A stretch of 19,295 nucleotides of DNA from a virus (Duplodnaviria; Heunggongvirae; Uroviricota; Caudoviricetes). Positions 1,413 to 16,893 of this stretch are shown piece after piece. Both the position numbers and the translations under genes were made by a program. The notes under the pieces were generated by a model. It saw only the letters and a program-made list of their open reading frames with translations, did no database searches and was not told where the DNA came from. Position 1 is the first letter of the stretch, and every line of letters begins with the position of its first letter. Location: IMG/VR virus record IMGVR_UViG_2563366887_000005, positions 1-19,295 of that record; one strand, written 5' to 3'.

Positions 1413-1446
1413 TACAGCTGCATTTATTAAGGTTATCATCCGTTTC

Positions 1447-1533
1447 GCTGAAAAACATAACCCATAAAATGCTAGCTGTACCAGGAACCACCTCCTTAGC
1501 CTGTGTAATCTCCCTTACACGGGCTTATTTTTT
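1447..1533 (+). ncRNA. cyaR: CyaR (RyeE) Hfq-dependent small RNA
   Basis: Sequence GCTGAAAAACATAACCCATAAAATGCTAGCTGTACCAGGAACCACCTCCTTAGCCTGTGTAATCTCCCTTACACGGGCTTATTTTTT matches CyaR as I recall it; ends in a hairpin plus U-tract; located between yegQ and ogr as in K-12. Confidence 0.85.
1507..1533. repeat. attL core (27 bp, AATCTCCCTTACACGGGCTTATTTTTT), reverse complement of the P2 att core, overlapping the cyaR 3' end
   Basis: Exact 27-bp direct repeat of 18792-18818; flanks a prophage with ogr at one end and int at the other. Confidence 0.85.
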
Positions 1534-1597
1534 ACGCGTAATACAATGAAATAAAAGGATTTATTTCTGGTCACGTCCACACATTGACCACATCGAC

Positions 1598-1621
1598 AAA
1601 AAAGCCCCTCGACTGAGGGGC
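1598..1621 (-). terminator. Rho-independent terminator downstream of ogr
   Basis: Hairpin GCCCCTC-GACT-GAGGGGC with an A-run on the + strand (a U-run on the - strand) immediately 3' of the ogr stop. Confidence 0.6.
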
Positions 1622-1634
1622 TTCCTGTTTGTAA

Positions 1635-1853
1635 TTACATCCACATAATTTGCTGCCCTGACGGCAACGGGTGCGGTCTTACGGCGTGGACTTCTCCCGG
1701 CTTCACGATGTATCGCTGTACCGACTCATAAGTGATGAACGTGGCGCTGCAATTCACGTTCTGGCACTGGTGATAACGCTCTTTTGTCGTGTCAGTGATA
1801 TAGCGACTTGTACGCGCATGTGCGGCATGCTGGCATAAAGGACAATGAAACAT
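1635..1853 (-). CDS. ogr: Ogr, P2 late-gene transcriptional activator (zinc-finger), 72 aa
   Basis: Translation MFHCPLCQHAAHARTSRYITDTTKERYHQCQNVNCSATF... carries the Cys4 motif; start taken at the internal ATG (1853) because the 93-aa ORF extension is not part of Ogr. Confidence 0.9.
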   Translation of the reverse strand: MFHCPLCQHAAHARTSRYITDTTKERYHQCQNVNCSATFITYESVQRYIVKPGEVHAVRPHPLPSGQQIMWM

Positions 1854-1934
1854 CGCGAGCACCTCTTCCGGTTTTGTTGATGGTGCCATTTTAGTTAATT
1901 TATCCTTATAAAACAAACAGATAAAATAAAAACA

Positions 1935-3098
1935 TCATTCATCATCTTCTGTTTCGTACTCCACATCAGAAAGCCTGACCTCAAGCTCTAAGGACGTCGT
2001 GAAGCCGCTATTATTCAGAAAATGTGTCACCTTAGTGATGGTCCAGTCCTGCTCGTCTATGACGCGCTTAAAGCCTGACACTCTGACCGGTGTTTCCGTG
2101 TAAATATCTGCACGACCGGTAGCCAGGATGATGGAGAACTCCGCTACACCCCGTTGCAGCTTATCCCACTTCGCCTGAGCGGCACGCATGGCCTGCGCTT
2201 TCGTGGCATATACCGTAGTCAGGGCAAAAACGTTGTCAGCCTCACCGGCCATGTATTCACCTTCGCGCGCTTCCGGTACTTTTGGCGCTTTCTTCTGCGT
2301 GACCGGTTTCGCTTTCGGGTGCTCCAGTGCGCGCAGGTGTTTCTCTTTCTTTTTGCGTTTCAGTTTTACCTTCTGCTTTTGTGGCTTCGGGTCTTTGGTG
2401 TGTAACCACTTTGCCGTTACGCCGGTATAGGCTCCACGGTCAGCAATCGCAAAATGATGGCGGTCGCCGTCGCTGCGGGTGATGGTAATCTGCGGGATTT
2501 TTTTACCGCTGGCCGTCACCCCCTGCCCTGCTTTGAGAAACAGCAGTTCTCCCATTTTTACCGACACCTCGCCGCCGTTGCGTTCAGCAAGACGGGTCAG
2601 GAATTTCACATCAGACTCCTGCGACTGGTCGATGTGCGGGATTTTAATTCCGGCCAGTGACGGAGCGACACTGGCTTCCAGCCTGTTACGGGAGGCTATC
2701 GCCTCAACAATCGCACCGAGCGTGGTGTCATGCCAGGAGCCTTCCCGGCGGGAATTGAGCGTCCCACGAAAATCTGCACTCCGGGCACGGATGGTGACCA
2801 CATCCGGTGCGCCCCGGTGTTCAACCTCATCAACGGTAAATTTCCCTTTGCATACCAGGGCAAAACCTTTCCAGCCGATATACACCGTCAGGACAGCGCC
2901 ACGAACAGGCAGCCCGACCTGCCCGTCGGCATCGTTCAGTTCAATATCAAGCTGGTCAGCCTCAAAGCCCCGGTTATCCGTCAGGGTCATGCTCATCAAA
3001 CGGTCGCTGATATTGCCGGTAATATCCCTGCTGTCGAGCATCAGCATGTAATCCGGCGTCAGCGTACTGCCTGCATCAAATGTCAGCGCATCCAGCAT
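1935..3098 (-). CDS. D: P2 gpD-like tail protein, 387 aa
   Basis: Full-length ORF, MLDALTFDAGSTLTPDYMLMLDSRD...; position between ogr and U matches P2 gene order; start overlaps the U stop by 1 nt. Confidence 0.9.
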   Translation of the reverse strand: MLDALTFDAGSTLTPDYMLMLDSRDITGNISDRLMSMTLTDNRGFEADQLDIELNDADGQVGLPVRGAVLTVYIGWKGFALVCKGKFTVDEVEHRGAPDVVTIRARSADFRGTLNSRREGSWHDTTLGAIVEAIASRNRLEASVAPSLAGIKIPHIDQSQESDVKFLTRLAERNGGEVSVKMGELLFLKAGQGVTASGKKIPQITITRSDGDRHHFAIADRGAYTGVTAKWLHTKDPKPQKQKVKLKRKKKEKHLRALEHPKAKPVTQKKAPKVPEAREGEYMAGEADNVFALTTVYATKAQAMRAAQAKWDKLQRGVAEFSIILATGRADIYTETPVRVSGFKRVIDEQDWTITKVTHFLNNSGFTTSLELEVRLSDVEYETEDDE

Positions 3099-3577
3099 TA
3101 TCCCGCCCCCGTCATACCCGTGAATTTAGTCGCCATACTGCCAGCCTTACCGATGAGCGATTCTGCCTGTTTACCGATATCGCCATAAAGCGCGGCCAGT
3201 GATTCATCCACGCGGGTGAGCGACAGCGTAAAATCAATTTTCCGGGGTGTGCCGTCTGCAAAGAAAATACTCCCTGTTTCACTCACCCTGCTGATGACAT
3301 ACATGCCGTAAATCATGCCGGTGCCATCCAGCAACGGCCACGCCCGGCCTTCCTCTGCCATCAGCCTGAGCGTGGTCATCGTCAGCTTCCCGCCGGTCAG
3401 TTCGGGATAAAGCACGCCGGCAAGCGTCATGTTTTCCTCACCCACACCGAGAAACTGGTAGGCATCCCGTTTACCGATACGGGAATTTGACGGCCAGCGA
3501 TAATCTGATTCACGCTGCATGGTCTGGTGTGGCAGCGTCTGGCGCATAAAAACAAACATACCTAACGCGAGCATCAT
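3098..3577 (-). CDS. U: P2 gpU-like tail protein, 159 aa
   Basis: 159-aa ORF with a strong SD (GGAGG) upstream; order T-U-D as in P2. Confidence 0.9.
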   Translation of the reverse strand: MMLALGMFVFMRQTLPHQTMQRESDYRWPSNSRIGKRDAYQFLGVGEENMTLAGVLYPELTGGKLTMTTLRLMAEEGRAWPLLDGTGMIYGMYVISRVSETGSIFFADGTPRKIDFTLSLTRVDESLAALYGDIGKQAESLIGKAGSMATKFTGMTGAG

Positions 3578-3591
3578 TTTTCGTCACCTCC

Positions 3592-5991
3592 TTAACCGTC
3601 ATGCATCATGCTGGCACGGGCGCGCGCACGTTTATCCCGCTCGTATTTTTCGAGCGCATCCTGTAACTGGCGGTCAAGCTGTGTCCCCGGCGCAGTACCA
3701 CCCGTCAGGCTGATGTGATATTCGTTTTTACTCTGGTCCACATAAGAGCGGCCAGCCGGTGCCGTGACCGGCTGATAAACCTGATAGCCTGCATAAGAGC
3801 TGGTCGCCGGAATATAACCACCGCTGCCATACGTGGCGGCTTGAGTTCTGGCGGCGGTCTGGTCAAGTGTGTCTGACTCTTTGTTGATAACACCGAGTTT
3901 TTCCAGTACCCAGTCAATACCGCTGCGCAGTTTGTTGAACGCATTAAGCGGCAGCATCAACGCGTCAGCCAGTGCCTGCCCGAACATGACACCCGTGTCA
4001 CGGCAACGGTTCAGGGTGTCCTGGGTGGCTTTGACGGGGGCAATCAGGTTTTTAAACCACTGCCACGCGGCCTGTAACTTTTCACCCAGCCAGTCAAACA
4101 GCGGCTTAAGTGGCGTGAACAGTTCCCCCACCGGCGCAAATGCCGCTTTCAGCCCTTCCACCACACCGCCAAAGAATGCGCTGACAGGCTCCCAGTATTT
4201 ACGGATAAGCAACGCCCCGGCGACAATTGCAGCCACCACGGCCACAACCGGCCAGCTAATCGCCCCGATGGCCGTCATAACGGCACTACCAACCGTCGTG
4301 AAGATTGCCCCCATTGCGCCTGCTGCCGCGATGATGGCATTGATGCCAGTGATAACCGGCCAGGCTACAAGACCAATTGCACCGATGATGCCAGTAAGCG
4401 CCAGCGCGCCACCGGCAATGATGCCAATGGTTGACGCCAGTGATTTGTTTTTCTGGATCCAGCCGTCGAGTTTTAACACATACTTTGTGGCCGTCTGTGT
4501 GAGCTTACGCAGTGCGCCTTCCTGCTGGTCAAACAGGTCTGTCCCCACCGCCTCATAAGCGGACTGAAACTCCTTAAAGTCACCGCCGAGGTTGTCCTGC
4601 ATGATATTTACCAGCTCGGCAGTCTTCCCGTCTGAGGCTTTAAACGCAGCGGTCAGTTTGTCCAGCTTTCCGGTTGAGGCGGCAGTCATCAGCACGGCAG
4701 CGGCTGAGCTGGCCTCCTCCCCGAAAATAGTTTTCATGTATTCAGCCTGCTGGGCAGTACCGAGCCGGTTTTTCTCAAAACTGGCCTGCATTTCTTTCAG
4801 AATGGTAAATATTGGCCGGGTGTTTCCTTTGCTGTCTGAGGTTTTCACTCCAAGCTCTTTGAGTGCATCCCATGCTTTTCCCGTCGGTGCCTGCAGGCGG
4901 CTTAACACGGCACGGCTTCCCGTCCCCGCCATTGAGCCTGTGATTTTTGCATCATGCAGCGCCCCGACCATTGCGGCGGTTTCTTCAATGCTGACACCGG
5001 CATTTTTTGCCACAGGTGCGGCATAGGTCAGCGCATCGCTCATGCCGTCAAAATCGGCGGCGGTTTTGTTCATCGTCATGGAGAGGACATCCCCGATATG
5101 AGCGACCTTATCGTTTGAAAGCTGAAAGGCGGATTTCATCCCCATCAGCAGGGCGGCGTTTTCTTCCATTGTGCGACGGTTCGCCAGCGCCATATTCAGC
5201 GTGACCGGCGTTGCCGCCTGAATGGCATCAACATCCCCACCGGCTTTCGCAATAATAATCTGCGCACCGGCTGCATCATCTGCCGAGGCTGCGGTATTGT
5301 CGCCGAGCTGGCGCGCCTGCTTGCGTAGTGCAGCCATTTCGGCGGAGTCTTTTGCCACACCGAGCACAGCCTGCAATTCTGAGTTTTTCTGCGCAAACTC
5401 ATAACCGGGCATCAGCAGCTTAACTCCGGCCATCGTTCCCGCCGCCGCAATCCCCACACCGGCAGCGCCCACTGAGGCCATATTTCCGGCCAGTTCCTTT
5501 CCGGCCTGATAACGCTGTTTTACTGCGTTAAGTTTTGCCTGTTGTGCACTGACACGCGCCAGTGCGTCACGCTGACGGTTAAGCTGTGCGGTGGTTTCAC
5601 TGATACGGTTTTTCAGTCCCTGCTCATCATGTGCAAGATTGCGGGTATTAATTCCCACAGCGGCCAGTTCCCGCTGCTGGCGTTTAACGGAGTCCGTCAG
5701 GCGGTTATATTTCGCCTGTAAGTCCTCCGCCGCACGCTTTGCGGATTCGCGCAGTTCCTCAACCAGAATGACCAGATGCCGCATACTACGCCCCAGCCTG
5801 TCCAGCTTCCAGACTACCAGAGTGTCACCTGCTGATAATGTTCTGAGCAGTTTTTTCAGCCCCGGCCTGTCGGACTTCGTGCCGCTGATTTTGTCCTCAA
5901 AAATCAGCTCACATCCTGCGCACTCCAGCGCATTACGCTGCAATTCCGTGTTCTGGTCATTTGTTGACACGCGTACATAGCCAATAAGCAT
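3592..5991 (-). CDS. T: Chimeric ORF: tail tape-measure protein (gpT-like, N-terminus missing) fused in frame to the first ~82 codons of a serine DNA invertase gene
   Basis: C-terminal ~700 aa show tape-measure features (long Ala/Gln-rich helical region, Gly/Ala-rich hydrophobic stretch IGIIAGGALALTGIIGAIGLVAWPV...). N-terminal MLIGYVRVSTNDQNTELQRNALECAGCELIFEDK...TLVVWKLDRLGRSMRHLVILVEELRE is a Pin/Gin/Hin-type resolvase catalytic domain. Junction estimated near 5745. Confidence 0.75.
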   Translation of the reverse strand: MLIGYVRVSTNDQNTELQRNALECAGCELIFEDKISGTKSDRPGLKKLLRTLSAGDTLVVWKLDRLGRSMRHLVILVEELRESAKRAAEDLQAKYNRLTDSVKRQQRELAAVGINTRNLAHDEQGLKNRISETTAQLNRQRDALARVSAQQAKLNAVKQRYQAGKELAGNMASVGAAGVGIAAAGTMAGVKLLMPGYEFAQKNSELQAVLGVAKDSAEMAALRKQARQLGDNTAASADDAAGAQIIIAKAGGDVDAIQAATPVTLNMALANRRTMEENAALLMGMKSAFQLSNDKVAHIGDVLSMTMNKTAADFDGMSDALTYAAPVAKNAGVSIEETAAMVGALHDAKITGSMAGTGSRAVLSRLQAPTGKAWDALKELGVKTSDSKGNTRPIFTILKEMQASFEKNRLGTAQQAEYMKTIFGEEASSAAAVLMTAASTGKLDKLTAAFKASDGKTAELVNIMQDNLGGDFKEFQSAYEAVGTDLFDQQEGALRKLTQTATKYVLKLDGWIQKNKSLASTIGIIAGGALALTGIIGAIGLVAWPVITGINAIIAAAGAMGAIFTTVGSAVMTAIGAISWPVVAVVAAIVAGALLIRKYWEPVSAFFGGVVEGLKAAFAPVGELFTPLKPLFDWLGEKLQAAWQWFKNLIAPVKATQDTLNRCRDTGVMFGQALADALMLPLNAFNKLRSGIDWVLEKLGVINKESDTLDQTAARTQAATYGSGGYIPATSSYAGYQVYQPVTAPAGRSYVDQSKNEYHISLTGGTAPGTQLDRQLQDALEKYERDKRARARASMMHDG
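5746..5991 (-). pseudogene. Serine DNA invertase (Pin/Gin/Hin/Cin family) 5' fragment; C-terminal HTH DNA-binding domain deleted
   Basis: The catalytic-Ser motif YVRVST is present, but the ORF switches to tape-measure sequence after ...LVEELRE; no invertase C-terminal domain is found anywhere in the window. Confidence 0.75.
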
Positions 5992-6058
5992 GATCATCCC
6001 CCTGAATAAAAACCGGGGATGATGCCAGTTAGCCATTATCTCTGCATTTTCATAAACG

Positions 6059-6092
6059 TTGGTTTGGGAGAAGCGGCAAAACGGAATGTAGG
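6059..6092. repeat. Inverted repeat, left arm (34 bp crossover site of the invertible tail-fibre segment)
   Basis: TTGGTTTGGGAGAAGCGGCAAAACGGAATGTAGG is the exact reverse complement of 7606-7639; encodes the conserved [10 protein letters not shown] junction peptide in both orientations. Confidence 0.8.
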
Positions 6093-6426
6093 TAACGGGC
6101 AAAACCAAATTCCGGATATGGCGGCGTTTGCCAGTTCACTTTCATCAACGGGTTTTCAAAAACTTCCTTCAGGTCTGATTATTCAGTGGGGTATTGTCAG
6201 TGGAGCATCAAACTATACGGTGACTTACCCGGTAACATTCCCAAATCGTTCACTTGCGCTGTTGGCTGTGCCACATACAACGTCGGTGGCTGGTATATCT
6301 GCAATGGGCATAGCGAACTGTTCTGATATCAGCAAATCACAGTTCTATATAATTGTTGGCGGTATATCTCAGGGAAAAATTGTCAAATATGAAAGGTCCT
6401 GTTTTTGGGTAGCAATCGGTGTATAG
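6059..6426 (+). CDS. Alternative tail-fibre C-terminal (variable) domain in the silent orientation (Sv'); no promoter or constant region of its own
   Basis: Shares the [20 protein letters not shown] junction and KLPxGxIxQWG pattern with the opposing 7266-7760 ORF; the reading frame begins inside the inverted repeat. Confidence 0.6.
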
Positions 6427-6434
6427 GTATATCT

Positions 6435-6830
6435 ATGATTTATTTCTCAAAATCGACTAATGGTTTTTTCTTTGATGGTATAAACAGCGACATGCCTGCT
6501 GACATTGTTGAGATAAGTACAGACTTATACAATGAATTAATTGCCGGACAGCAGGAAGGGGGTAAATTAATCACGTCAGATGAAAATGGTTTACCGGTAC
6601 TGAAATCTCCGGCGATTGATTATGTCGCACGTGCTGAAAATCAGCGAATGCAGTTACTTGCTCATGCCGATAATGTCACAGCTGACTGGCGGGTGGAATT
6701 AATGCTTGGTGATATCAGCAGTACAGATAAAGAAAAACTATCTGCCTGGATGGACTACAAAAAAGAAGTAAAAGCCGTCGACACTTCGACGGCTCCTGAG
6801 ATTAGCTGGCCTGAGTTACCGGAGGTGTAG
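6435..6830 (+). CDS. Tail-fibre assembly chaperone (Tfa, gpG/U'-like)
   Basis: Translation MIYFSKSTNGFFFDGINSDMPADIVEISTDLYNEL... has the typical Tfa N-terminus; start taken at ATG 6435 rather than the upstream TTG. Confidence 0.75.
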   Translation: MIYFSKSTNGFFFDGINSDMPADIVEISTDLYNELIAGQQEGGKLITSDENGLPVLKSPAIDYVARAENQRMQLLAHADNVTADWRVELMLGDISSTDKEKLSAWMDYKKEVKAVDTSTAPEISWPELPEV

Positions 6831-7245
6831 GCCATTCAATATCTGGAGCACTGGAGGTATCCACCAGTTCCAGTGCGTCCAGGTAATCCAGCCACAAATT
6901 ATATTGCGCCAGTTCCTCACCTTTCAGACGACCAATAGCTGATTTGCCAGGCCATTGCTTACTGTTCATGTATTCGTTAGCCTGGTTAATTAGTAGCTGT
7001 TTTTCTGATTCAGTAATTTCAATAAGCTCTTCATACGTGGGTGGAGGAATATCTGCCCACGCAGGCAGCCCATCATCTCCGGCAATACGGATTTTTCCTT
7101 GTGGCGGTTCAGCCATAAACTCACTGATAATATTTTGATTTACTTCCTTTGCGTCTGATAAATCCCATCCCTCTGATTTATATTTATCAATCATATCCAC
7201 AGGGAAAAAAGCATTATGCCTTGCGCTATAAACATATTCGTTCAT
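6802..7245 (-). CDS. Tail-fibre assembly chaperone (Tfa, gpG/U-like), partner of the currently expressed fibre C-terminus
   Basis: Translation MNEYVYSARHNAFFPVDMIDKYKSEGWDL...; convergent with the other Tfa, 3' ends overlapping. Confidence 0.75.
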   Translation of the reverse strand: MNEYVYSARHNAFFPVDMIDKYKSEGWDLSDAKEVNQNIISEFMAEPPQGKIRIAGDDGLPAWADIPPPTYEELIEITESEKQLLINQANEYMNSKQWPGKSAIGRLKGEELAQYNLWLDYLDALELVDTSSAPDIEWPTPPVTQAS

Positions 7246-7265
7246 ATAAATCACCCTGAATAAAA

Positions 7266-7760
7266 TTACTCACCAACAGCCCACCAACTGTAATTCATCG
7301 ATACTGTGGAGCTGGTTGATGCAGTTCTGTAAGCGGAATTAAAACCGGTTAGTGTTGGACCTTCTGCAGTCATCACGAATCCCCGTCCAGCGCCTAAAGG
7401 CGCACCACCATCACCAGAATGGGTAAGCATGGCGCAGTCCACTTCTTTAGGAAAAGGGATGCTGAATGTAATTCTCATTGTTTGCGTCGATAATGTCGGC
7501 GTAATCGCACCACGACCATATTGCAGGATTTTCCCGTTGGGTAATTTCATCCATCCATCACCACTGGCAAAAGAGGTCATGTCCGGTATCTGATTTTCCC
7601 CTGTTCCTACATTCCGTTTTGCCGCTTCTCCCAAACCAAGGTATGCGAGAAGACCAGCTACATCCTTTCCACTCAAATTAGTCAGCGTATTGTCCAGCGG
7701 TTGTTTACCTGCCAGCGCATTAAGCATTGTCGTGGCAAAGTTCGGATCGAGGAGCTGCAA
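7266..7760 (-). pseudogene. Tail-fibre protein (gpH-like) 3' fragment: short constant-region remnant plus variable C-terminal domain (Sv); most of the gene deleted
   Basis: The ORF runs through the right inverted repeat ([21 protein letters not shown]) but has only about 40 codons upstream of it before meeting terminase P sequence on the opposite strand. Confidence 0.65.
7606..7639. repeat. Inverted repeat, right arm (34 bp crossover site)
   Basis: Exact reverse complement of 6059-6092. Confidence 0.8.
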
Positions 7761-8378
7761 CGCTGCATGGTCGACACGCTGGAAGAATGGGAAGACTATG
7801 CGCCGTTTGCCACCAATCCGTTCGGCTCACGTCCGGTATGGATTGGTTACGACCCGTCACACCGTGGCGACAGCGCCGGATGCGTGGTACTGGCACCGCC
7901 GGTGGTGGCCGGTGGCAAATTCAGGATCCTTGAGCGTCACCAGTGGAAAGGCATGGACTTTGCCACCCAGGCAGAATCCATCCGCAAACTCACCGAAAAA
8001 TATAACGTTGAATACATCGGTATTGATGCCACCGGCCTCGGTGTCGGTGTGTTCCAGCTCGTGCGCTCGTTCTATCCCGCCGCTCGCGATATCCGCTACA
8101 CGCCGGAAATGAAAACCGCAATGGTCCTCAAGGCAAAAGACGTCATCCGCCGTGGCTGTCTGGAATATGACGTCAGCGCCACCGACATCACCAGCTCGTT
8201 TATGGCTATCCGCAAGACCATGACCAGCAGCGGACGCAGCGCCACCTATGAGGCCAGCCGCAGCGAGGAAGCCAGCCACGCCGACCTCGCCTGGGCGACC
8301 ATGCACGCTCTGTTAAATGAGCCACTCACCGCCGGTATCAGCACCCCGCTGACATCCACCATTCTGGAGTTTTACTGA
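7701..8378 (+). pseudogene. P: Terminase large subunit (gpP-like) C-terminal fragment; 5' two-thirds deleted
   Basis: The ORF ends 1 nt into the portal gene start (TGATG overlap), matching the P-Q operon arrangement, but only about 225 codons remain where P2 P is about 590 aa. The 5' boundary is uncertain (junction somewhere in 7640-7760). Confidence 0.7.
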
Positions 8379-9412
8379 TGAGCAAGAAAAAAAGGAAAAC
8401 ACCGCAACCTGCGGCAAAAAAAATGACCGCCAGCGCCCCGAAAATGGAGGCATTCACCTTTGGTGAGCCGGTGCCGGTACTCGACCGCCGTGACATTCTG
8501 GATTACGTCGAATGCATCAGTAACGGCAGATGGTATGAGCCACCAATCAGCTTTACCGGTCTGGCAAAAAGCCTGCGTGCTGCCGTGCATCACAGCTCAC
8601 CGATTTACGTCAAACGCAATATTCTGGCTTCAACGTTTATCCCGCACCCGTGGCTGTCCCAGCAGGATTTCAGCCGCTTTGTGCTGGATTTTCTGGTGTT
8701 CGGTAATGCGTTTCTGGAAAAGCGTTACAGCACCACTGGTAAGGTCATCAGACTGGAAACCTCACCGGCAAAATATACCCGCCGTGGTGTGGAAGAGGAT
8801 GTTTACTGGTGGGTGCCGTCCTTCAACGAGCCGACAGCCTTCGCGCCCGGCTCCGTGTTTCACCTGCTGGAGCCGGATATTAATCAGGAGCTGTACGGCC
8901 TGCCGGAATATCTCAGCGCCCTTAATTCTGCCTGGCTGAATGAGTCGGCCACGCTGTTTCGCCGCAAGTATTACGAAAACGGCGCTCATGCCGGATACAT
9001 CATGTACGTCACCGATGCCGTGCAGGATCGCAACGATATCGAAATGCTTCGCGAAAACATGGTGAAGTCAAAAGGCCGCAATAACTTTAAAAATCTGTTT
9101 CTCTATGCCCCGCAGGGGAAAGCCGACGGCATTAAAATTATCCCCCTCAGTGAAGTGGCAACGAAAGACGATTTTTTTAATATCAAAAAAGCCAGCGCCG
9201 CTGACCTGCTGGACGCGCACCGCATCCCCTTTCAGTTGATGGGCGGCAAGCCGGAGAACGTCGGGTCGCTGGGTGATATTGAGAAAGTGGCAAAGGTCTT
9301 TGTCCGCAATGAGCTTATCCCGTTACAGGACAGGATCCGCGAGATAAACGGCTGGCTTGGTCAGGAGGTCATCCGCTTTAAAAACTACTCACTGGACACT
9401 GACAACGGTTGA
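8378..9412 (+). CDS. Q: Portal protein (gpQ-like), 344 aa
   Basis: Full-length 344-aa ORF immediately upstream of cos, as in P2; basic N-terminus MSKKKRKTPQPAAKK. Confidence 0.85.
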   Translation: MSKKKRKTPQPAAKKMTASAPKMEAFTFGEPVPVLDRRDILDYVECISNGRWYEPPISFTGLAKSLRAAVHHSSPIYVKRNILASTFIPHPWLSQQDFSRFVLDFLVFGNAFLEKRYSTTGKVIRLETSPAKYTRRGVEEDVYWWVPSFNEPTAFAPGSVFHLLEPDINQELYGLPEYLSALNSAWLNESATLFRRKYYENGAHAGYIMYVTDAVQDRNDIEMLRENMVKSKGRNNFKNLFLYAPQGKADGIKIIPLSEVATKDDFFNIKKASAADLLDAHRIPFQLMGGKPENVGSLGDIEKVAKVFVRNELIPLQDRIREINGWLGQEVIRFKNYSLDTDNG

Positions 9413-9417
9413 ACATC

Positions 9418-9439
9418 GCCGCCTGCGGGCGGCTTTTTT
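9418..9439 (+). terminator. Rho-independent terminator after Q
   Basis: GCCGCC-TGCG-GGCGGC hairpin followed by TTTTTT. Confidence 0.7.
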
Positions 9440-9581
9440 ACAGCCCGTCATCACGCCCTCACACGCTCACCACCGTACAAAACATCCCGCAGACACACCA
9501 ACACCCCAACGGGCACACTAAACGCCGCCACGACGCGCTCAGACGCTGAAAAAATAAAATCAGCACCACCGCCAGCGCGCA

Positions 9582-9600
9582 GTGCTTTCCCCGCCTCGCC
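9582..9600. other. cos site (19-nt cohesive-end sequence GTGCTTTCCCCGCCTCGCC, reverse complement of the P2/P4 cos GGCGAGGCGGGGAAAGCAC)
   Basis: Exact match to the P2 cohesive end as I recall it, located about 170 bp past the Q stop in the expected orientation. Confidence 0.75.
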
Positions 9601-9838
9601 CGCCCGCTTCATGGGGCGATTTTAATGCAGTGGCATGATTTAGCCGAATCCGCGCCATTGTTGACATTGATGTTTTGATATGGATATGGCGTAAGCATGC
9701 GAATTCATTCAAGATGATGCAAGAATGATGAAATTATGGTACAGATCGATTAGCCATAATATGCCCCACGTTGTTACATGTGGTTCATAAGAGTTATGGC
9801 TCATAGGGATTTATACAAAATATATATAGGTAATTATC

Positions 9839-10903
9839 ATGTCAGGTGAAACTCAAAATATTTCAGCAATGGCAGAAAAAATATCTTCAGACCTATTCAA
9901 ATGGTTTAAGTGGGAACTCGTTGGTCCAACCAATGAAAACTTTCCATGCATGAAAAAAGATCAACATAAAACACTAGCCGGAACACATCCAACTGATGTT
10001 GTATTTTCTTATAAAGATCCCTATTTGAATAGAACTATTTTTTTAAATACTGATTTAAAAAGCTATATTAAAGGCTCAATTACAGCAACTAAAATGCGCA
10101 ATGCTTTAGTATCTCTGGCTAATTCTATTGACTGTGCTCAAGGTTGTAAAGAATGGAAGGAGCGTTATTCTTATAAAAATGGTGCATCAGAAGTCAGAGG
10201 CATGCTCTTTGTATACAACCATGACGGAGACTTTGACCAATCTTTTTATGATGTATTCTATCAATCTCACAATACTGAAACTGATAAGAAGAAAAGAGGT
10301 ATTAATCTTGACAATATACCGGTAAGAGCCGGTCAAAAAATACACATCATTGAACCAAGAACTATAAACTACTTGCAGTCAATAATCTGCGATTTATCAC
10401 AACTAAGCCACAAAAGAGAGTTTCCACTCGGTAAAAAATATCAATTCTTTTACCCAGACCTTTCACTACATAAAGTAAGCGGTTCGCCCGAAGAACTTCC
10501 AGCAACTGTAGAATTATTGACAGGCCCATTCCTTATTATAAAACATAATGACGTCAGACATTGCAATGAAGAAACATCACAATGGGAAACTACATTTAAA
10601 CATGGTTACATTATTTATTACAATGGCGAAGGAAAAAACGAGCTAGAGTTTATTTATATTCTAGACACGCTATCTAAATATCAATTACTAGATGGCAATG
10701 AAAATATAAGAATTAGAATAGTTAACCCTAACATACATAAAGATGTTCGCAGTATTTTTATGCGTGCGAAGGATAGTTATTGTCAAGAATGGGGGTTCGA
10801 TGAACATAAAAAAACGATAATAGATGCTATTGATTTTCAACAGGTAGAATTTACAAAGCCTCGTTTTAGTTCGGTAGAGATTGGTTGGGAGCGACAGGCA
10901 TGA
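9839..10903 (+). CDS. Hypothetical protein, 354 aa; first gene of the hotspot cassette; possible N-terminal PD-(D/E)xK-like nuclease motif (D53 ... D72-L-K74)
   Basis: Long ORF in an A+T-rich island; no resemblance to any P2 protein I know; stop overlaps the next start (ATGA). The motif assignment is from visual inspection only. Confidence 0.7.
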   Translation: MSGETQNISAMAEKISSDLFKWFKWELVGPTNENFPCMKKDQHKTLAGTHPTDVVFSYKDPYLNRTIFLNTDLKSYIKGSITATKMRNALVSLANSIDCAQGCKEWKERYSYKNGASEVRGMLFVYNHDGDFDQSFYDVFYQSHNTETDKKKRGINLDNIPVRAGQKIHIIEPRTINYLQSIICDLSQLSHKREFPLGKKYQFFYPDLSLHKVSGSPEELPATVELLTGPFLIIKHNDVRHCNEETSQWETTFKHGYIIYYNGEGKNELEFIYILDTLSKYQLLDGNENIRIRIVNPNIHKDVRSIFMRAKDSYCQEWGFDEHKKTIIDAIDFQQVEFTKPRFSSVEIGWERQA

Positions 10904-12012
10904 AAATTGGATTATATAGTGTAAATGATAAGGCAATGTTTGACGCATTGAATCAAACTAAAGTCACTCATGAAGATATGAAAAGTCTCTTTTTTAAAAG
11001 AGGAATGATTATATCCAAAGAGACTAAACGAAAAACATTGGCTTTGGATTTTTCCAGATACTATCATGGCTATTCTGATTTTGAATTTCTTTCAAACATA
11101 CTCGGTTCTGTTGGGCGGAGAGAAAAAGTATCAATTAACATTATTAATACAAATATAGATAAAAATAGTATGGAAAATACTATTAAATCTATTTGTGAAG
11201 ATCTTCAAAAAGAAGGCGATATAACTAATATAAATTACACCGAGAATGGTTTTGAAGTATCAATCAAATATGTGAAACTAGATTTCAAAATGAGCGAGTT
11301 TCGCCAATCCTCATCACGTGAAGCCAAAATACAAGTTGAAATGAATGAAAGCGGTGAATTTATCACCCGTTTCCCTCAAAATGCTAAAGCAAGGGAATTC
11401 AACGAGCGCCTCGTGGAGAAGATCAAAGAAGACAACAATGAGGATCCAGCCAGTCTTGATGAAATTTCGCTCGAAACTGTTAAATCACCAGCGGAAAGAA
11501 GCAAGTTTTTTGAGCAACTAATCTCAAGCATACCTAACTACAAATGCATTGACGTATCGGATGTATACGTTACGCATCCAATTCTTGAGTCAAATAAGTC
11601 TAACGAAAATGAAGATGATTCTGATGATGACGATACAATTATTGACACAGGATATCATATCTCCAAAGCTTCATTAAAAGGGCGCAGCGTTCTTGACTCT
11701 CTCGAGTTTAAAGAGTTGTTAGGAAAAGGATTTTATATTACCAAAATCATTTGGAGTTCTGTTGTTGACACTTATAAAGACTCGGACAAATATGAATTCG
11801 AGGCTCAATTTGTCGACCCAGATAATTGCAAGTTATTCTCGTATATCGTTCGCGGTGTTTATAAGTACAAAAATATAAACGAATATGCAAATCGTCAAAA
11901 TGTAGATAAAGAGAAGGAAAAACTGCTATTATTAGCACTTGAAAAAACCGCTCGCGAAATTTCAAACAGTATTATCGCCTCAAACACAATTGAGGTTGTT
12001 ACTGATAAATAA
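10900..12012 (+). CDS. Hypothetical protein, 370 aa; second gene of the hotspot cassette; contains an acidic DDSDDDD stretch
   Basis: ATG at 10900 overlaps the upstream TGA (translational coupling), with GGGAG 8 nt upstream; the ORF-track start at 10885 is a TTG and is less likely. Confidence 0.7.
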   Translation: MKIGLYSVNDKAMFDALNQTKVTHEDMKSLFFKRGMIISKETKRKTLALDFSRYYHGYSDFEFLSNILGSVGRREKVSINIINTNIDKNSMENTIKSICEDLQKEGDITNINYTENGFEVSIKYVKLDFKMSEFRQSSSREAKIQVEMNESGEFITRFPQNAKAREFNERLVEKIKEDNNEDPASLDEISLETVKSPAERSKFFEQLISSIPNYKCIDVSDVYVTHPILESNKSNENEDDSDDDDTIIDTGYHISKASLKGRSVLDSLEFKELLGKGFYITKIIWSSVVDTYKDSDKYEFEAQFVDPDNCKLFSYIVRGVYKYKNINEYANRQNVDKEKEKLLLLALEKTAREISNSIIASNTIEVVTDK

Positions 12013-12023
12013 AAGGAGTTGTT

Positions 12024-12695
12024 ATGAAAACAAAATGGTTTACTGCCAACTTCCCTGCTGGACTTGATAGTTTATATCAGTCTATCATTAACACTCCTTT
12101 TGATAGTGATAAAGGCTGGGGATTTAGTATCAACTCATATGAAGAAAATGCAATATCATCTCGATACATCGAGAAAGTAGAGGTCAACGAGATAATCGTT
12201 GATCCATATGGAAACGAGACTCAATATACACAGCTAAAATATATTCAATTTAACTTTTGGCTTTACACAACAAAAGGTAAAAACTTCATCTTAATCATTG
12301 AGTCGCCTCCCAGAAGCATTAAGAACTTCATATCAAACATAATTAAATCAACACATTCTGATTTTAATGTGTCAAATCTCAACATCAAAATTGAGGACTT
12401 CATTTATTTCCTGACCCCGCACTTTGAAAAAATACAAGTGCACAAGGCAAAATTAAAAGACTTAACGTTTAGCAAACACACATCCGGCATACTGGAACTT
12501 GAGTCATCAAGTGACGCACTTATGGAAATAAGAAACATTTTCAAAAATGCAAATTTTACAATTGATAAAGTTAAACTTAATGTTAAGGATGTGACCGGTT
12601 ATGAGTCATTAGAAATTAACACAAATGGGTCCATTTCACTTTCAGAGCAAATTTTTGACAAGGTGTATCTAACCATAGAAAGATTTGCCCTTTAA
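12024..12695 (+). CDS. Hypothetical protein, 223 aa; third gene of the hotspot cassette
   Basis: Strong SD (AAGGAG) 6 nt upstream of the ATG; 11-nt gap after gene 2; followed by a terminator. Confidence 0.7.
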   Translation: MKTKWFTANFPAGLDSLYQSIINTPFDSDKGWGFSINSYEENAISSRYIEKVEVNEIIVDPYGNETQYTQLKYIQFNFWLYTTKGKNFILIIESPPRSIKNFISNIIKSTHSDFNVSNLNIKIEDFIYFLTPHFEKIQVHKAKLKDLTFSKHTSGILELESSSDALMEIRNIFKNANFTIDKVKLNVKDVTGYESLEINTNGSISLSEQIFDKVYLTIERFAL

Positions 12696-12735
12696 GTTAA
12701 CAATACAATTCAATTCTTTTGATGTAATAAAAACG

Positions 12736-12766
12736 GCCTCATTAAAAATGAGGCTTATCGTTTTAT
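12736..12766 (+). terminator. Rho-independent terminator ending the hotspot operon
   Basis: GCCTCATT-AAA-AATGAGGC hairpin followed by a T-rich tract (TTATCGTTTTATT). Confidence 0.65.
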
Positions 12767-12860
12767 TATTGTAGCCATGCCATCTGGTTTTCACCTTTTC
12801 CTCCAGCACAGTATTAATACACACCTTATATAGTTTTATCTCTTAGATATTCACACTATT

Positions 12861-15140
12861 TCAATCTATTACAGTTGTGAACCCTGGCCATCCATCAGCG
12901 ACCGGATAAGCGAATTTTTTCCCGTCATAATTTACGGTCGCGCCACGCGCCAGCGCCTCAAGCTCCCATCGCTGTGGCCTGATACCGTTCTGAGCAAGGT
13001 CAACGCGGATACGGGTAATTTGCATTCGTTCCGACCGAGTCAGTCTGGCCGATGGCGCTATTTCATGCGGTTTTAACGGGCTTCCGTTTCTTTGCTGACG
13101 GTTTGGTCTTCTCAGACCGTGTTTTAATGCACCTCTGAGCGCCCTCACGACCTCCTGGTCATTCCATTCGATAACACCGTCATCTACCAGATTAAGCACT
13201 GCTACGGCGTGTTCAGAAGGCGTGGGAGCCGGTAACGAAGTATCACCACCGGTGAGCTTTCCACAGTTATTGACAGGACTCCGAGGCGCGGCGATGCCGC
13301 TTTTTAAAGTCAAAGGCTCAACGACCGGAACTTTCGGCACAATGCGCCAGTCCGTCGTTCTGGTGATATGAATATGACGCGCGCCGAGATGCGGCGCGTA
13401 AATGCCGACCACTCTCTCGACTTCTTCCTCGTACTCGTTAACGTCATCCGACGGGCTACGGGCGACCCTGACAGTCTGACAATCGCGCGGGACATTTGCC
13501 CCGCCCTGCGCGCTGATATACAACGCAAAATCACCACTGTCTGCGGCGGCGCGTGCAGCCTCGACGCGTTCGTCAAACTCATCAGCAATGCTGACGCCGC
13601 GAGGCAATTTGCGTAGCTCACGGTAAGCCCCCATTGTCGGCAGGCCAACCGTTTTAAATTGCGGAATGCGCCACGTTGACGCCCATGCGGTAACAGCCGC
13701 GGCAGTATCTTTCAGCGGCCTGCCAGTATCGTTATCGAGCTGACCATCCAGTGCATAGCCGTCGATGTTTTTTGAGATGTATTTCGCGATATATCCCGCA
13801 GCACCGCCCCGGTTAAGGTGTTTTGCCTGAAAACGGTTTCGCGCAGCGCCTCTTTCGTCACCATCCTCTTTGAGCGCATAGCGACGCATGATTTCGATAA
13901 TCTGGTTACGCTGGCGTGGATTACAAAAAAGCATCATATGCCAGTGCGGCGTTCCGTCGTGGTGTGGCTCGACGACACGCAAACCGTAGACCTGTAAATC
14001 ATTATCCTTGAATGCCGTGCGCATCAGGCTCCAGATATGGCAGAGATAACGCTGCGCATCCTTTGGATTAAATGCCTCATCATTCCAGCCGTGATTTAGC
14101 TGGACGGTTTTACTTTCGCCTTTTCCGACCTGACGTGTCGGGTGATACTTTGACGGCGCGGTCAGCGTGATAAACATCCCCACATCACCCTCTGCGGCGG
14201 CATAACGCTCAATTCCGGCGATGGTGTTCATCAGCTCCATCCGGCGAATTTCAGGATTAGAAATACTGCCCATCACCTTACTGATAAGGTCGATGCGCTC
14301 GCCGGTTTCCCTGTTTTCAAGGTCACACGATTTAAGAAATTCCAGATTTGCCTGGCGGCGTGCACGCACATCACGAATGGCATGTTTACTGGCATAAGGA
14401 GAACGGTCTTTATTGACCTCCCCGACAGCAATCAGTAACGCCTCATGCCAGCGCATACGCTGGCCTTTAAGCTGATGAGTCCACCACTCATCGTTAAACA
14501 GACGGGCAATGGCAGAATATGCCTGCCTCGTGGTTATCTGTCCTTTACGGTATTTTTTCCAGTAGAGCGGGGAAATATTGAAAGCACGTGCAGCGCCAGC
14601 AACATGACCATACAGGTGAGTCTGCGCCTCATCCGTAAACAGCGATTCTTTTTCGCCATGTGCATCAACCCATGCATCGCAGAGTTCCTCATACATCATG
14701 AAAAGCTGCGATGAGATACGGGCGGCAAACTTTTTCAGCTCCTTGTCATTCATCCCCGGCAGGCGCGCATAGTGGTCACGCTCTGCCAGAAACAGTAACG
14801 ACGCGTCGGTGTTCATTTCATGGCGCTGATTCACGCGCTCAATGCGCGGCCATAAACGACGCTGAAAAGTGGATGTGAGGAAATAAAACCCGTGCACCGG
14901 GCTTTTATTGCGCCGGATGTAGTCATAGCGTGAAGTAAACAGCGAGCGCAAAAAGTAAGGCAGGCGGTTAATCGTGGATAAAACACCTTGCACCTGACGC
15001 ATCTCGTCACGTGTAAGGGGTCTTTCGCGCCCGACAGCCTCGCGTGGCGCGTTCCATGCATAAGCACCGGTAAACGCCTTACCGGTGCCTGCGGCAAATG
15101 CTGACGGAGGGACAAAACGCCCGGAGGCTTTAACGGCCAT
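12861..15140 (-). CDS. A: P2 gpA-like replication initiation endonuclease (rolling-circle initiator)
   Basis: Translation MAVKASGRFVPPSAFAAGTGKAFTGAYAWNAPREAVGRERPLTRDEMRQVQGVL... matches P2 A along its length as I recall it; start taken at ATG 15140 rather than the upstream TTG. Confidence 0.9.
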   Translation of the reverse strand: MAVKASGRFVPPSAFAAGTGKAFTGAYAWNAPREAVGRERPLTRDEMRQVQGVLSTINRLPYFLRSLFTSRYDYIRRNKSPVHGFYFLTSTFQRRLWPRIERVNQRHEMNTDASLLFLAERDHYARLPGMNDKELKKFAARISSQLFMMYEELCDAWVDAHGEKESLFTDEAQTHLYGHVAGAARAFNISPLYWKKYRKGQITTRQAYSAIARLFNDEWWTHQLKGQRMRWHEALLIAVGEVNKDRSPYASKHAIRDVRARRQANLEFLKSCDLENRETGERIDLISKVMGSISNPEIRRMELMNTIAGIERYAAAEGDVGMFITLTAPSKYHPTRQVGKGESKTVQLNHGWNDEAFNPKDAQRYLCHIWSLMRTAFKDNDLQVYGLRVVEPHHDGTPHWHMMLFCNPRQRNQIIEIMRRYALKEDGDERGAARNRFQAKHLNRGGAAGYIAKYISKNIDGYALDGQLDNDTGRPLKDTAAAVTAWASTWRIPQFKTVGLPTMGAYRELRKLPRGVSIADEFDERVEAARAAADSGDFALYISAQGGANVPRDCQTVRVARSPSDDVNEYEEEVERVVGIYAPHLGARHIHITRTTDWRIVPKVPVVEPLTLKSGIAAPRSPVNNCGKLTGGDTSLPAPTPSEHAVAVLNLVDDGVIEWNDQEVVRALRGALKHGLRRPNRQQRNGSPLKPHEIAPSARLTRSERMQITRIRVDLAQNGIRPQRWELEALARGATVNYDGKKFAYPVADGWPGFTTVID

Positions 15141-15405
15141 ATGAGCCAAAAGCCTCTGAACAACGCTTGCTGAGTTGCTCAACCTGCGCGTTTAAATCAG
15201 CAAAAGACTTTGCGCTTCCGGTCAGAATATCGTGATGCATCAGGCCGGAAACGAGCTGGCTTAATTTCGGGTAATAACCAACCACCGCCAGCCATTCCTG
15301 ACCGGCGTTTTTACCGCTTTCCGCTCTCTTTTTCTCGTGGAGAATAAACTGAAAGCTGTCACTGGTAACGACATAACGTTCGCCAATTTCGATACGAATA
15401 CTCAT
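15130..15405 (-). CDS. P2 Orf83-like small protein
   Basis: 91-aa ORF translationally coupled to orf82 (ATGA overlap) and abutting A; position matches the P2 orf80-83 block. Confidence 0.65.
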   Translation of the reverse strand: MSIRIEIGERYVVTSDSFQFILHEKKRAESGKNAGQEWLAVVGYYPKLSQLVSGLMHHDILTGSAKSFADLNAQVEQLSKRCSEAFGSYGR

Positions 15406-15626
15406 GCCATTCTCCGGTAATGTTTGTTTTTTGCTTCAAAGACTGACTGACAGGAAACACAACGCGTGGCTGACGGATAAGCCGCACGACGGGCAGCAGG
15501 TATTGGCGCGTCACACTCTTCGCAAACCAGCGCAGAAACACCGCAATGCTTTACCCTTGCCGCGTTAATCTGGCGCTCCAGTAATTCAGCCTTTTGTTCC
15601 TGAATAAAATCTACGTTGTCCGGCAT
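15402..15626 (-). CDS. TraR/DksA-family C4 zinc-finger protein (P2 Orf82-like)
   Basis: Translation has CEECDAPIP...CVSCQ, two CxxC pairs; 74 aa. Confidence 0.75.
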   Translation of the reverse strand: MPDNVDFIQEQKAELLERQINAARVKHCGVSALVCEECDAPIPAARRAAYPSATRCVSCQSVFEAKNKHYRRMA

Positions 15627-15928
15627 TACCAGCTCCTTTTGTCGTTCAGCTTCTTAAATTCATCAGCGCAATAGCTGGCAATTTCTGTCGTTAATTTCGT
15701 CAGTTCATCCACGGAGGAGATTTGCTTGTGAAATACAGCGCGTTTAACAAGTAAATTGACCACATCAGACAGGAGATTTAATTCGTTCTGATAAATCGCG
15801 ATAACAGACTCAGTTATTTCGCGTTTTTCTTTATCAAGACCAAGTTGAATAAGAGACAAATCACCATTTTTCATAACGGCGATTTTTAAGGCGTTATTCA
15901 GTAATACAACTGAACGAGAACAGGACAT
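15626..15928 (-). CDS. P2 Orf81-like hypothetical protein
   Basis: ORF with ATG at 15928 overlapping the upstream stop; conserved position. Confidence 0.6.
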   Translation of the reverse strand: MSCSRSVVLLNNALKIAVMKNGDLSLIQLGLDKEKREITESVIAIYQNELNLLSDVVNLLVKRAVFHKQISSVDELTKLTTEIASYCADEFKKLNDKRSW

Positions 15929-16152
15929 CAAAGCACCTCCCCGCGAGACAATCCGATATTGTGAAATTTTTCCGACTCCTGACTGAGCAGCTCGACTATC
16001 TCCACGCGGGATAACTCCGCCTTTGTGATGTGGCGAATCATGGCGTCAAGATGAGAAGAAAAGCGCGTCGCTGCGTCGGCCTGTGCTTCGGTTCTGGCCT
16101 GTTGCAGCAGTAATGCGTATTTACCGCACTGATTTTCAGAAACTGTATGCAT
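15928..16152 (-). CDS. P2 Orf80-like hypothetical protein
   Basis: ATG at 16152 with a GGAG SD; the ORF-track start (TTG at 16185) is less likely. Confidence 0.6.
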
Positions 16153-16215
16153 GACTTTCTCCAGGCAAAAAGAAGCCCCGCACAATTAAGTGCGTTAAAA
16201 ACTCTGGTTAATTAC

Positions 16216-16716: not shown

Positions 16717-16883
16717 TTCCAGAACCTCCGGCTTTTCAGAAAGGTCAGAGCCTTCTTTAACGGACTCTGTTTTTTGGTGCGGATAATGATTCCCTTACGC
16801 CCCTTACCGTGGGTAATGGTGAAGTCAATCGCCCTGGGGCTTTCGTTACGCAGTAACTGAGCAATACAACGAGGCTCATTCAT
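16713..16883 (-). CDS. P2 Orf78-like small protein
   Basis: Small ORF from ATG 16883, stop overlapping the B start; the ORF-track start at 16907 is GTG. Confidence 0.55.
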   Translation of the reverse strand: MNEPRCIAQLLRNESPRAIDFTITHGKGRKGIIIRTKKQSPLKKALTFLKSRRFWK

Positions 16884-16893
16884 ACGGTTCTCC

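What the first reader, a model, noticed from the sequence alone, without database searches (positions are those of the whole stretch)
7640..7760. Second deletion joint: tail-fibre gene remnant abuts a terminase P fragment on the opposite strand
In P2 about 13 kb (O, N, M, L, X, Y, K, R, S, V, W, J, I and most of H) separate P from the fibre C-terminus. Here the two meet within about 120 bp with overlapping opposite-strand ORFs. Together with the T/invertase joint, this means the whole capsid and baseplate module is gone while the prophage ends, immunity, replication and hotspot cargo are kept.
Basis: partly seen in the sequence, partly recalled or inferred. Interest (0 to 1): 0.45.

Follow-up and report, generated by a model that had tools for sequence, protein, structure and literature searches.

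The report
Shared deletion scar in defective P2 prophage
This is the scar of an 11-12 kb deletion that removed the head, lysis and baseplate genes from a P2-type prophage of E. coli KTE197. That is ordinary prophage decay, except that the identical joint also occurs in other E. coli prophages carrying different flanking alleles.

Summary
At window 7747/7748 the last 160 codons of a tail-fibre gene (7269-7748, minus strand) are joined head-to-head to the last 209 codons of terminase gene P (7749-8378, plus strand). The two parents share only the dinucleotide TC.

Compared with intact relatives, 10.8-11.8 kb is missing: the P N-terminus, both late promoters, O through S, V through I, and the H N-terminus. 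The overlapping ORFs are an artefact, because each reads past the joint into foreign DNA.

- The fibre is not P2 H. It belongs to a Gin/Pin-type invertible fibre cassette, now frozen.
- The portal gene Q survives.
- The gap is about 11.8 kb in P2 coordinates, not 13 kb.

New findings:
- The window is E. coli KTE197.
- The T/invertase joint is private to that strain.
- The H'|P' joint is not private. The same joint, to the nucleotide, occurs in other E. coli prophages that keep T and the invertase. These carry three other fibre alleles, and one (strain B2C) is a 186-like prophage whose P is only about 70% identical.

Most likely an old deletion allele persisted and spread, with its flanks replaced up to the joint by gene conversion. 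A site-preferred recurrent deletion is not excluded. The joint has no function.

The parts
7747..7748 (.). Deletion joint 2: the dinucleotide TC, shared by both parents
   Evidence: Fibre homology ends at 7748 and P2 P homology begins at 7747.
7269..7748 (-). Tail-fibre remnant H': the last 160 codons, with no start codon or promoter of its own. The stop codon is at 7266-7268.
   Evidence: 100% identical over 299 nt to the fibre gene of the strain 1105 prophage. Pfam Gp53-like_C at residues 68-159.
7652..7748 (-). All that is left of the fibre constant region (32 codons, [16 protein letters not shown]...)
   Evidence: Lies between the joint and the right crossover site. In intact alleles the break falls at N|DPNF.
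7626..7651 (.). Right crossover site of the invertible fibre segment (TTCTCCCAAACC AA GGTATGCGAGAA)
   Evidence: Outer end of inverted repeat I1 and inverted copy of 6047-6072. The resemblance to hix/gix/pix sites is from my own knowledge.
6047..7651 (.). Invertible segment. It holds two fibre C-terminal arms and two tail-fibre assembly genes: 6019-6426 (+), 6405-6830 (+), 6802-7254 (-) and 7266-7651 (-).
   Evidence: 89-nt inverted arms at 6047-6135 and 7563-7651, 81% complementary. Pfam Gp53-like_C and Caudo_TAP.
7749..8378 (+). Terminase large-subunit remnant P': the last 209 of 590 codons (the nuclease domain) plus the stop codon
   Evidence: 96.6% identical to P2 nt 1852-1221. Pfam Terminase_6C, 163.6 bits.
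8378..9412 (+). Intact portal gene Q
   Evidence: Phage_portal.
9582..9629 (.). Joined cos region (P2 cosL/cosR)
   Evidence: Window 7747-9600 equals P2 1852-1, and 9582-9629 equals P2 33593-33546.
5746..5748 (.). Deletion joint 1 (T'/invertase'), microhomology TTC. It creates a 799-codon in-frame fusion at 3592-5991 (-).
   Evidence: The fusion protein was found only in KTE197.

Best explanation
Window 7747/7748 is the scar of one illegitimate deletion of about 11-12 kb inside a P2-type prophage that carried an invertible fibre cassette.

What was lost:
- the first 381 codons of P;
- the divergent late promoters P_P and P_O;
- O, N, M, L, X, the lysis genes, R, S, V, W, J and I;
- the first 240-310 codons or so of the fibre gene.

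What remains is a promoterless, start-less fibre C-terminus facing a promoterless, start-less terminase nuclease domain. Neither is expected to be made, and the joint has no function of its own. The cos-Q-P' stub probably survives by hitch-hiking next to the defence cargo in the cos/Q-A hotspot.

The deletion did not arise in this strain. The same joint exists in other E. coli prophages that still have T, E, FII, FI and an intact invertase. So it predates KTE197's private T/invertase deletion.

Inferred, not shown: the joint arose once or a few times. It has since sat in the recombining pool of P2-like prophages. Repair or gene-conversion tracts copied from intact relatives replaced the flanks. 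These tracts stop exactly at the joint, because homology ends there.
For: Shown:
- Homology map and nucleotide-level break.
- Domain identities.
- Host flanks baeSR-yegP-yegQ and int-yegR, with no structural genes outside them.
- An intact relative with the same cargo and the same backbone plus an invertase cassette (strain 1409).
- Source strain KTE197.
- The T-invertase fusion protein occurs on one contig only.
- Identical joint ...GG(A/G)TC|GAGGAGCTGCAACGC in L013 (intact T, FI, invertase; different att site and integrase) and in L008/L019 (P2-type H at P2 nt 13664 joined to P nt 1852).

For a single origin with one-sided flank replacement:
- In the first 400 nt right of the joint, L008/L019 is the nearest of 120 P2-type sequences to the window (7 differences, next best 11, median 17).
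- The window and L008/L019 share five derived alleles that none of 117 joint-free sequences carries together. Yet their fibre flanks are different alleles right up to the joint.
- The joint is rare and was seen only in E. coli. It gave 1 hit in IMG/VR against at least 120 intact sites, 0 in JGI metagenomes and 0 relevant in GTDB representatives.
- It occurs in 1 of 5426 complete genomes.
- No sequence feature at the two sites would direct recurrence.
Against: E. coli B2C carries the homologous joint in a 186-like prophage (...GTTCGGGTC|AGCGAACTGCAGG). There the P' flank is 186-type from the first base and 100% identical to intact 186-type P genes. P2-type and 186-type P are only about 67-70% identical, too diverged for ordinary RecA recombination. 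A templated copy should have left the donor's first three bases, and it did not. B2C therefore looks like an independent event at the same nucleotide, which argues for some site preference.

The fibre flanks of L008 and the window are only about 80% alike near the joint, which is also a poor substrate for conversion.

The haplotype argument rests on five sites.
Confidence: 0.6

Rival explanations
1. Site-preferred recurrent deletion. Some property of the two positions (N|DPNF in the fibre gene, F/L|E/S-ELQxCMVD in P) makes P2-like prophages break and rejoin there repeatedly. On this view the window, L013, L008 and B2C are independent events.
For: The same joint, to the nucleotide, occurs in four allele combinations, including a 186-like prophage whose P' flank is 186-type from base +1. 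Each flank is 97-100% identical to intact contemporary alleles right up to the joint. The core is always TC, a 2-bp overlap. Both breaks fall at protein domain boundaries.
Against: - No in-register homology beyond TC/TCA: matches within +-10 nt are 8-10 of 20, reached by 1-10% of other registers.
- No shared k-mer or inverted repeat and no Chi site.
- No resemblance to the invertase crossover site, which lies 96 nt away, nor to the P2 ori nick site.
- L008 has no invertase in cis.
- The joint was not found outside E. coli although P2-like phages are common in other genera.
- The window and L008 share a P' haplotype absent from 117 other sequences.
Confidence: 0.25
2. A deletion private to KTE197, i.e. 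recent strain-specific decay. The first reader left this possibility open.
For: The exact allele combination of the window (this fibre remnant protein and the T-invertase fusion) is found only in KTE197. No complete E. coli genome carries the window's joint.
Against: The same joint sequence occurs in L013, L008 and L019 with the same P2 coordinate. These loci lack joint 1.
Confidence: 0.05
3. Product of a site-specific recombinase (the adjacent Gin/Pin-type invertase or the P2 integrase) acting on pseudo-sites, or an IS-mediated adjacent deletion.
For: A serine invertase gene and its crossover sites lie next to the joint. The 2-bp overlap equals the stagger of serine recombinases. Several other deletions end close by in P.
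Against: - The joint is 96 nt outside the crossover site, and neither flank resembles a half-site.
- No IS or extra bases lie at the joint.
- B2C uses a different integrase.
- The clustering of other P endpoints near the conserved Met is explained by how ~203-aa ORFs were ascertained.
Confidence: 0.04
4. Assembly artefact: a false join in short-read assemblies.
For: KTE197 and most other carriers are draft assemblies. None of 5426 complete genomes has the P2-type joint.
Against: There is no shared k-mer that could cause a false join, only 2 nt. The joint recurs in independent assemblies from different sources (NCBI, Logan, IMG/VR). Its 186-type form is in a complete genome. Its frequency in complete genomes (1/5426) is in line with its rarity in drafts.
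Confidence: 0.02

Closest known systems
Cryptic P2 remnant of E. coli K-12 between yegQ and yegR (ogrK, yegZ = D'), and defective P2-like prophages generally
   Same: Same chromosomal site, with CyaR and yegQ on one side and yegR on the other. Same kind of decay by internal deletion of morphogenesis genes, with the prophage ends retained.
   Different: Here much more is kept: int, C, cox, B, A, cargo, cos, Q, P', a fibre cassette, T', U, D and ogr. Two distinct joints can be mapped to the nucleotide. The description of the K-12 remnant is from my own knowledge and was not re-examined here.
Gin/Cin/Pin/Hin-type invertible tail-fibre switches (Mu G segment, P1 C segment, e14 P segment) as carried by P2-like phages such as Cartapus and pro483
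   Same: A serine invertase gene lies next to two inverted 26-bp crossover sites. These bracket two alternative fibre C-termini, each with its own assembly gene.
   Different: The invertase is cut to 81 codons and fused to T'. The fibre constant region is cut to 32 codons. So the switch is frozen and the fibre cannot attach to a baseplate.
P2 cos/Q-A defence hotspot (Rousset et al., bioRxiv 10.1101/2021.01.21.427644)
   Same: The cargo at 9839-12695 lies between Q/cos and A. It matches PADLOC Hp1-Hp3.
   Different: This concerns the neighbourhood, not the joint. It offers a reason why the cos-Q-P' stub is retained.

Membership tests
Defective P2-like (Peduoviridae) prophage with internal deletion | Collinear homology to P2 on both sides of the break, bounded by att sites and host genes | tested here: met
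   Window 1507-5748, 7747-9629 and 12862-18818 are 96.6-97.7% identical to P2, in P2 prophage order. The flanks are yegQ/CyaR and yegR.
Defective P2-like (Peduoviridae) prophage with internal deletion | Essential morphogenesis genes are absent from the locus and not displaced just outside it | tested here: met
   No O, N, M, L, lysis, R, S, V, W, J or I genes appear in the window or in 10 kb of flanks. An intact relative has them between the two break points.
Illegitimate (microhomology) deletion | The parents share only a few bases at the joint, with no inserted DNA and no long repeat | tested here: met
   TC at joint 2 and TTC at joint 1. No in-register homology or repeat.
Gin/Hin-type invertible fibre switch (functional) | Inverted crossover sites bracketing alternative fibre C-termini | tested here: met
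   Sites at 6047-6072 and 7626-7651, 89-nt inverted arms, and two Gp53-like_C plus two Caudo_TAP genes.
Gin/Hin-type invertible fibre switch (functional) | Complete serine invertase with its C-terminal DNA-binding domain | tested here: not met
   Only Resolvase positions 2-92 of 145 are present, fused to the tape-measure domain. No HTH_7 domain is present (compare L013's 197-aa invertase).
Site-specific (invertase- or integrase-mediated) deletion | Joint located at a recombinase crossover site or a recognisable pseudo-site | tested here: not met
   The joint is 96 nt from the crossover site and its flanks do not resemble it. Only weak partial likeness to the attP core was seen by eye, and B2C has another integrase.
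IS-mediated adjacent deletion | IS element or its end at the joint | tested here: not met
   Parental sequences abut directly.
Helper-dependent satellite (P4-like) | Own replication and cos but no capsid genes, plus capsid-size or helper-manipulating genes (sid, psu, delta, epsilon) | tested here: inconclusive
   cos, A, B, int and cox are present and the capsid genes are absent. No sid/psu-like genes were seen among the called genes. Mobilisation cannot be tested with these tools.

The most novel reading that the evidence does not exclude
The H'|P' joint may be a recurrent, position-specific rearrangement of P2-like prophages. It would be formed independently in P2-type and 186-type genomes by an unrecognised mechanism that acts at two conserved coding motifs (N|DPNF in the fibre gene, F/L|E/S-ELQxCMVD in the terminase gene). 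Alternatively, it may be a deletion allele that propagates through the prophage pool by copying itself into intact relatives, a 'selfish' grounding allele.
Probability: 0.25. Interest if true: 0.55.

Novelty: new member of a known kind. Interest (0 to 1): 0.3.

Why it matters
By itself the joint only documents how one P2 prophage was grounded. This happened in two steps that can be ordered: a shared H-P deletion first, then a private T-invertase deletion.

The wider point is that a deletion scar can be identical to the nucleotide across prophages whose flanking alleles differ by 8-30%. If one scar is being carried around and 'repainted' by conversion up to the heterology boundary, scars become useful markers. 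They could be used to trace recombination among prophages, and to separate descent of a lesion from descent of the DNA around it.

If instead the scar forms repeatedly, there is an unknown hot spot for prophage inactivation in a very common phage family.

Tried and rejected
1. Hidden homology between the fibre and P sites. In-register identity was unremarkable for P2xP2, 1105x1105 and 1105xP2 parents, and there are no shared direct or inverted k-mers of 10 nt or more near the sites.
2. Chi sites: none in the window.
3. A new promoter or terminator at the joint: none found.
4. P2 A-protein ori nick site as a model for pseudo-site cleavage: only a CCTC|G likeness on the P side and none on the fibre side.
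5. Invertase crossover-site likeness at the joint: none.
6. A mosaic boundary in the fibre gene at the break: rejected. The break lies in the middle of an 80-86% conserved island.
7. A P-side hot spot inferred from many ~200-aa P' ORFs (E. coli, Serratia, Enterobacter, Iodobacter, S. bongori, a metagenome): rejected as ascertainment. Such ORFs are called only when the frame is broken just upstream of the conserved Met of MVD. Otherwise, an antisense ORF open up to the TTG 7 nt before that ATG forces the call.
8. Shared P endpoints 2117/2118 with different left partners (L011, L014, L006). These are better read as a nested second deletion through GGxTAxC microhomology in closely related elements.
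9. Listing joint-bearing fibre remnants by protein search. The output was swamped by ~239-nt contigs of the conserved fibre island.

Full report
**What is at the coordinates**

The window is a P2-type prophage lying between yegQ (1-1362, with CyaR at 1445-1530) and yegR. It comes from E. coli KTE197, scaffold KB733185.1.

BLAST against phage P2 gives three collinear blocks in prophage order:
- 1507-5748 equals P2 24382-20141 (attR, ogr, D, U, most of T).
- 7747-9629 equals P2 1852-1 plus the cosR end (the C-terminal part of P, Q, cos).
- 12862-18818 equals P2 30312-24356 (A to int, attP).

The 2.0 kb between the first two blocks (5749-7748) is not P2 DNA. It is 97.7% identical to the invertase and invertible fibre region of an Elveevirus/186-like prophage of strain 1105, and 95-97% identical to phage Cartapus.

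**The joint itself**

A 601-nt probe across the finding hits thousands of E. coli genomes, but always as two halves, 1-299 and 298-601. Nucleotide alignment to both parents shows fibre homology ending at 7748 and P homology starting at 7747. Only TC is shared.

- To the left lie the last 160 codons of a fibre gene (7269-7748, minus strand; Gp53-like_C).
- To the right lie the last 209 of 590 codons of gpP (7749-8378; a complete Terminase_6C nuclease domain), followed by an intact Q.
Their TTG starts lie in the other gene's DNA.
- No promoter-like or terminator-like site is created.

**What the fibre remnant is**

An 89-nt inverted repeat (6047-6135 and 7563-7651) ends in two 26-bp sites in inverted orientation:
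- TTTTCATAAACG TT GGTTTGGGAGAA
- TTCTCCCAAACC AA GGTATGCGAGAA

The sites bracket two fibre C-termini and two Caudo_TAP assembly genes. A serine-recombinase gene lies next to them. By my own knowledge this is the Gin/Cin/Pin/Hin arrangement. Only 97 nt (32 codons) of the fibre constant region survive between the right site and the joint. The invertase itself is cut to 81 codons and fused in frame to T' at joint 1 (5748/5749, microhomology TTC). So the switch is frozen.

**What is missing**

Strain 1409 carries an intact prophage with the same hotspot cargo (99.9% identical), a P2-type backbone and an invertase cassette between FI and H. Against it, the window lacks about 10.8 kb between the fibre gene and P, and 2.9 kb between T and the invertase.

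In P2 coordinates the second gap is 1853-13663, about 11.8 kb. It removes the P N-terminus, both late promoters, O, N, M, L, X, Y, K, lysABC, R, S, orf30, V, W, J, I and the first 310 codons of H.

- 11-12 kb is missing rather than 13 kb.
- The fibre is not P2 H.
- Q and the P nuclease domain remain.

**Shared or private**

Neither joint occurs in 5426 complete E. coli genomes in the window's form. The T-invertase fusion protein and the 164-aa fibre ORF occur only in KTE197 among about 15 billion proteins. But a one-residue variant of the 203-aa P' ORF is widespread, and its contigs show many different left neighbours.

Mapping them to P2 gives several different joints:
- D'|P at 2118
- FI'|P at 2117
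- FII'|P at 2003
- I|P at 1863
- ogr side|P at 1859
- two nonsense mutants

It also gives the window's own joint in other backgrounds.
- L013 has ...AAAGTTAGGATC|GAGGAGCTGCAACGC. It keeps an intact T, E, FII, FI and a 197-aa invertase, carries a third fibre allele (about 9% different in the 97-nt stub), and uses another integrase and att site.
- L008 (with eight similar contigs) and the IMG/VR contig L019 have P2's own H, at nt 13664, joined to P nt 1852...AAAATTCGGGTC|GAGGAG.

Joint 2 is therefore older than, or at least independent of, KTE197's private joint 1.

**The puzzle**

The complete genome of strain B2C carries a 186-like prophage at ybjL-rcdA, 94-96% identical to the intact one of strain 1105. 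It has ...GTTCGGGTC|AGCGAACTGCAGGCGTGCATGG. That is the same fibre codon (N|DPNF) joined to the homologous P codon (SVFPL|SELQACMVD, against SVFPF|EELQRCMVD in P2). The P flank is 186-type from the first base. So one joint, exact to the nucleotide, exists with four fibre alleles and two P lineages that are about 70% identical.

I looked for a cause in the sequence and found none:
- no in-register homology beyond TC/TCA;
- no shared repeats;
- no Chi site;
- no likeness to the invertase site 96 nt away or to the P2 ori nick site;
- no mosaic boundary in the fibre gene.

The apparent crowding of other deletion endpoints just upstream of the conserved Met of the nuclease domain, including cases in Serratia, Iodobacter, Enterobacter and a metagenome, is an ascertainment effect of how ~200-aa ORFs get called.

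**Most likely account**

Two observations favour descent of one scar over repeated formation.

First, the joint is rare and was seen only in E. coli:
- one IMG/VR contig, against at least 120 contigs with the intact P site;
- none in JGI metagenomes;
- none relevant in GTDB representatives;
- one in 5426 complete genomes.

Second, the P' flank of the window is closest to that of L008/L019 among 120 P2-type sequences (7 differences in 400 nt, next best 11, median 17). The two share five derived alleles that no joint-free sequence carries together (0 of 117). Yet their fibre flanks are different alleles right up to the joint.

That is the pattern expected if a break in one flank is repaired from an intact relative. 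The copied strand anneals back only as far as homology reaches, and the non-homologous tail is clipped at the joint. The flank is then repainted while the scar is preserved. This last step is inference from established recombination models, not shown here.

B2C does not fit this account easily, because of the 67-70% identity and the absence of donor bases at +1 to +3. I therefore keep a site-preferred recurrent deletion as a serious rival (0.25). Invertase-, integrase- or IS-mediated deletion, a KTE197-private event and an assembly error are each unlikely, for the reasons given under the rival explanations.

**Function**

None is proposed for the joint. The retained cos-Q-P' stub lies next to a three-gene cargo that matches PADLOC Hp1-Hp3. 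This cargo sits in the known P2 defence hotspot between gpA and gpQ (bioRxiv 10.1101/2021.01.21.427644). Selection on that cargo is a sufficient reason for the stub to persist.

**Verdict**

This is a real, precisely mapped deletion scar of an ordinary kind. Its one unusual property is that it is invariant across different flanking alleles.

Noticed in passing
window 1445-1530 (+): CyaR/RyeE sRNA gene (Rfam, 100.7 bits). Its 3' end overlaps the start of P2 homology at 1507 (attR), so the prophage sits at the cyaR-associated P2 attachment site between yegQ and yegR.
   Followed up: partly
window 3592-5991 (-), joint at 5748/5749: In-frame fusion of the first 81 codons of a serine invertase to the tape-measure protein T (799 aa). 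The microhomology is TTC and 2.9 kb is lost (invertase C-terminus, FI, FII, E/E', T N-terminus). The exact protein was found only in KTE197.
   Followed up: yes
window 9839-12695 (+): The three-gene hotspot cargo matches PADLOC Hp1, Hp2 and Hp3 (E = 2e-63, 4e-37, 5e-8) and has no Pfam hit here. The same cargo is present in 10 of 5426 complete E. coli genomes, including an intact prophage at pflA in strain 1409.
   Followed up: partly
window 6047-7651: Invertible fibre segment with crossover sites at 6047-6072 and 7626-7651. It is frozen because the invertase is truncated. The arm in frame with the constant stub is 7266-7651.
   Followed up: yes
L010, L015, L016, L017 (yegQ-yegR locus in other strains): The same locus shows other decay states. 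Deletions run from the ogr side to P nt 1859 and from FII to P nt 2003. Two otherwise complete prophages have adjacent nonsense mutations in P (CAA>TAA and TGC>TGA, two codons apart).
   Followed up: partly
L006:1496, L014:9717, L011:9719: The D'|P' joint (P2 ~23190|2118) occurs in two elements with different cargo and immunity. An FI'|P' joint (18029|2117) in a close relative of one of them shares the P endpoint. This looks like a nested second deletion through GGxTAxC microhomology.
   Followed up: partly
RefSeq annotation of P' fragments (e.g. L020:15122-15757): C-terminal terminase fragments of P2-like prophages are named 'oxidoreductase' by the annotation pipeline. This is a misleading name that has propagated to many records.
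   Followed up: no
fibre island around window 7650-7800 equivalents: A protein search with the fibre stub returned about a hundred separate ~239-nt E. coli contigs. The conserved island around N|DPNF therefore behaves as a multi-copy repeat that breaks short-read assemblies.
   Followed up: no
L009 (GCA_949281755.1, CASDNL010000173.1): Scrambled, duplicated pieces of P2 head genes with runs of N next to P'. This is probably a mis-assembly rather than biology.
   Followed up: no
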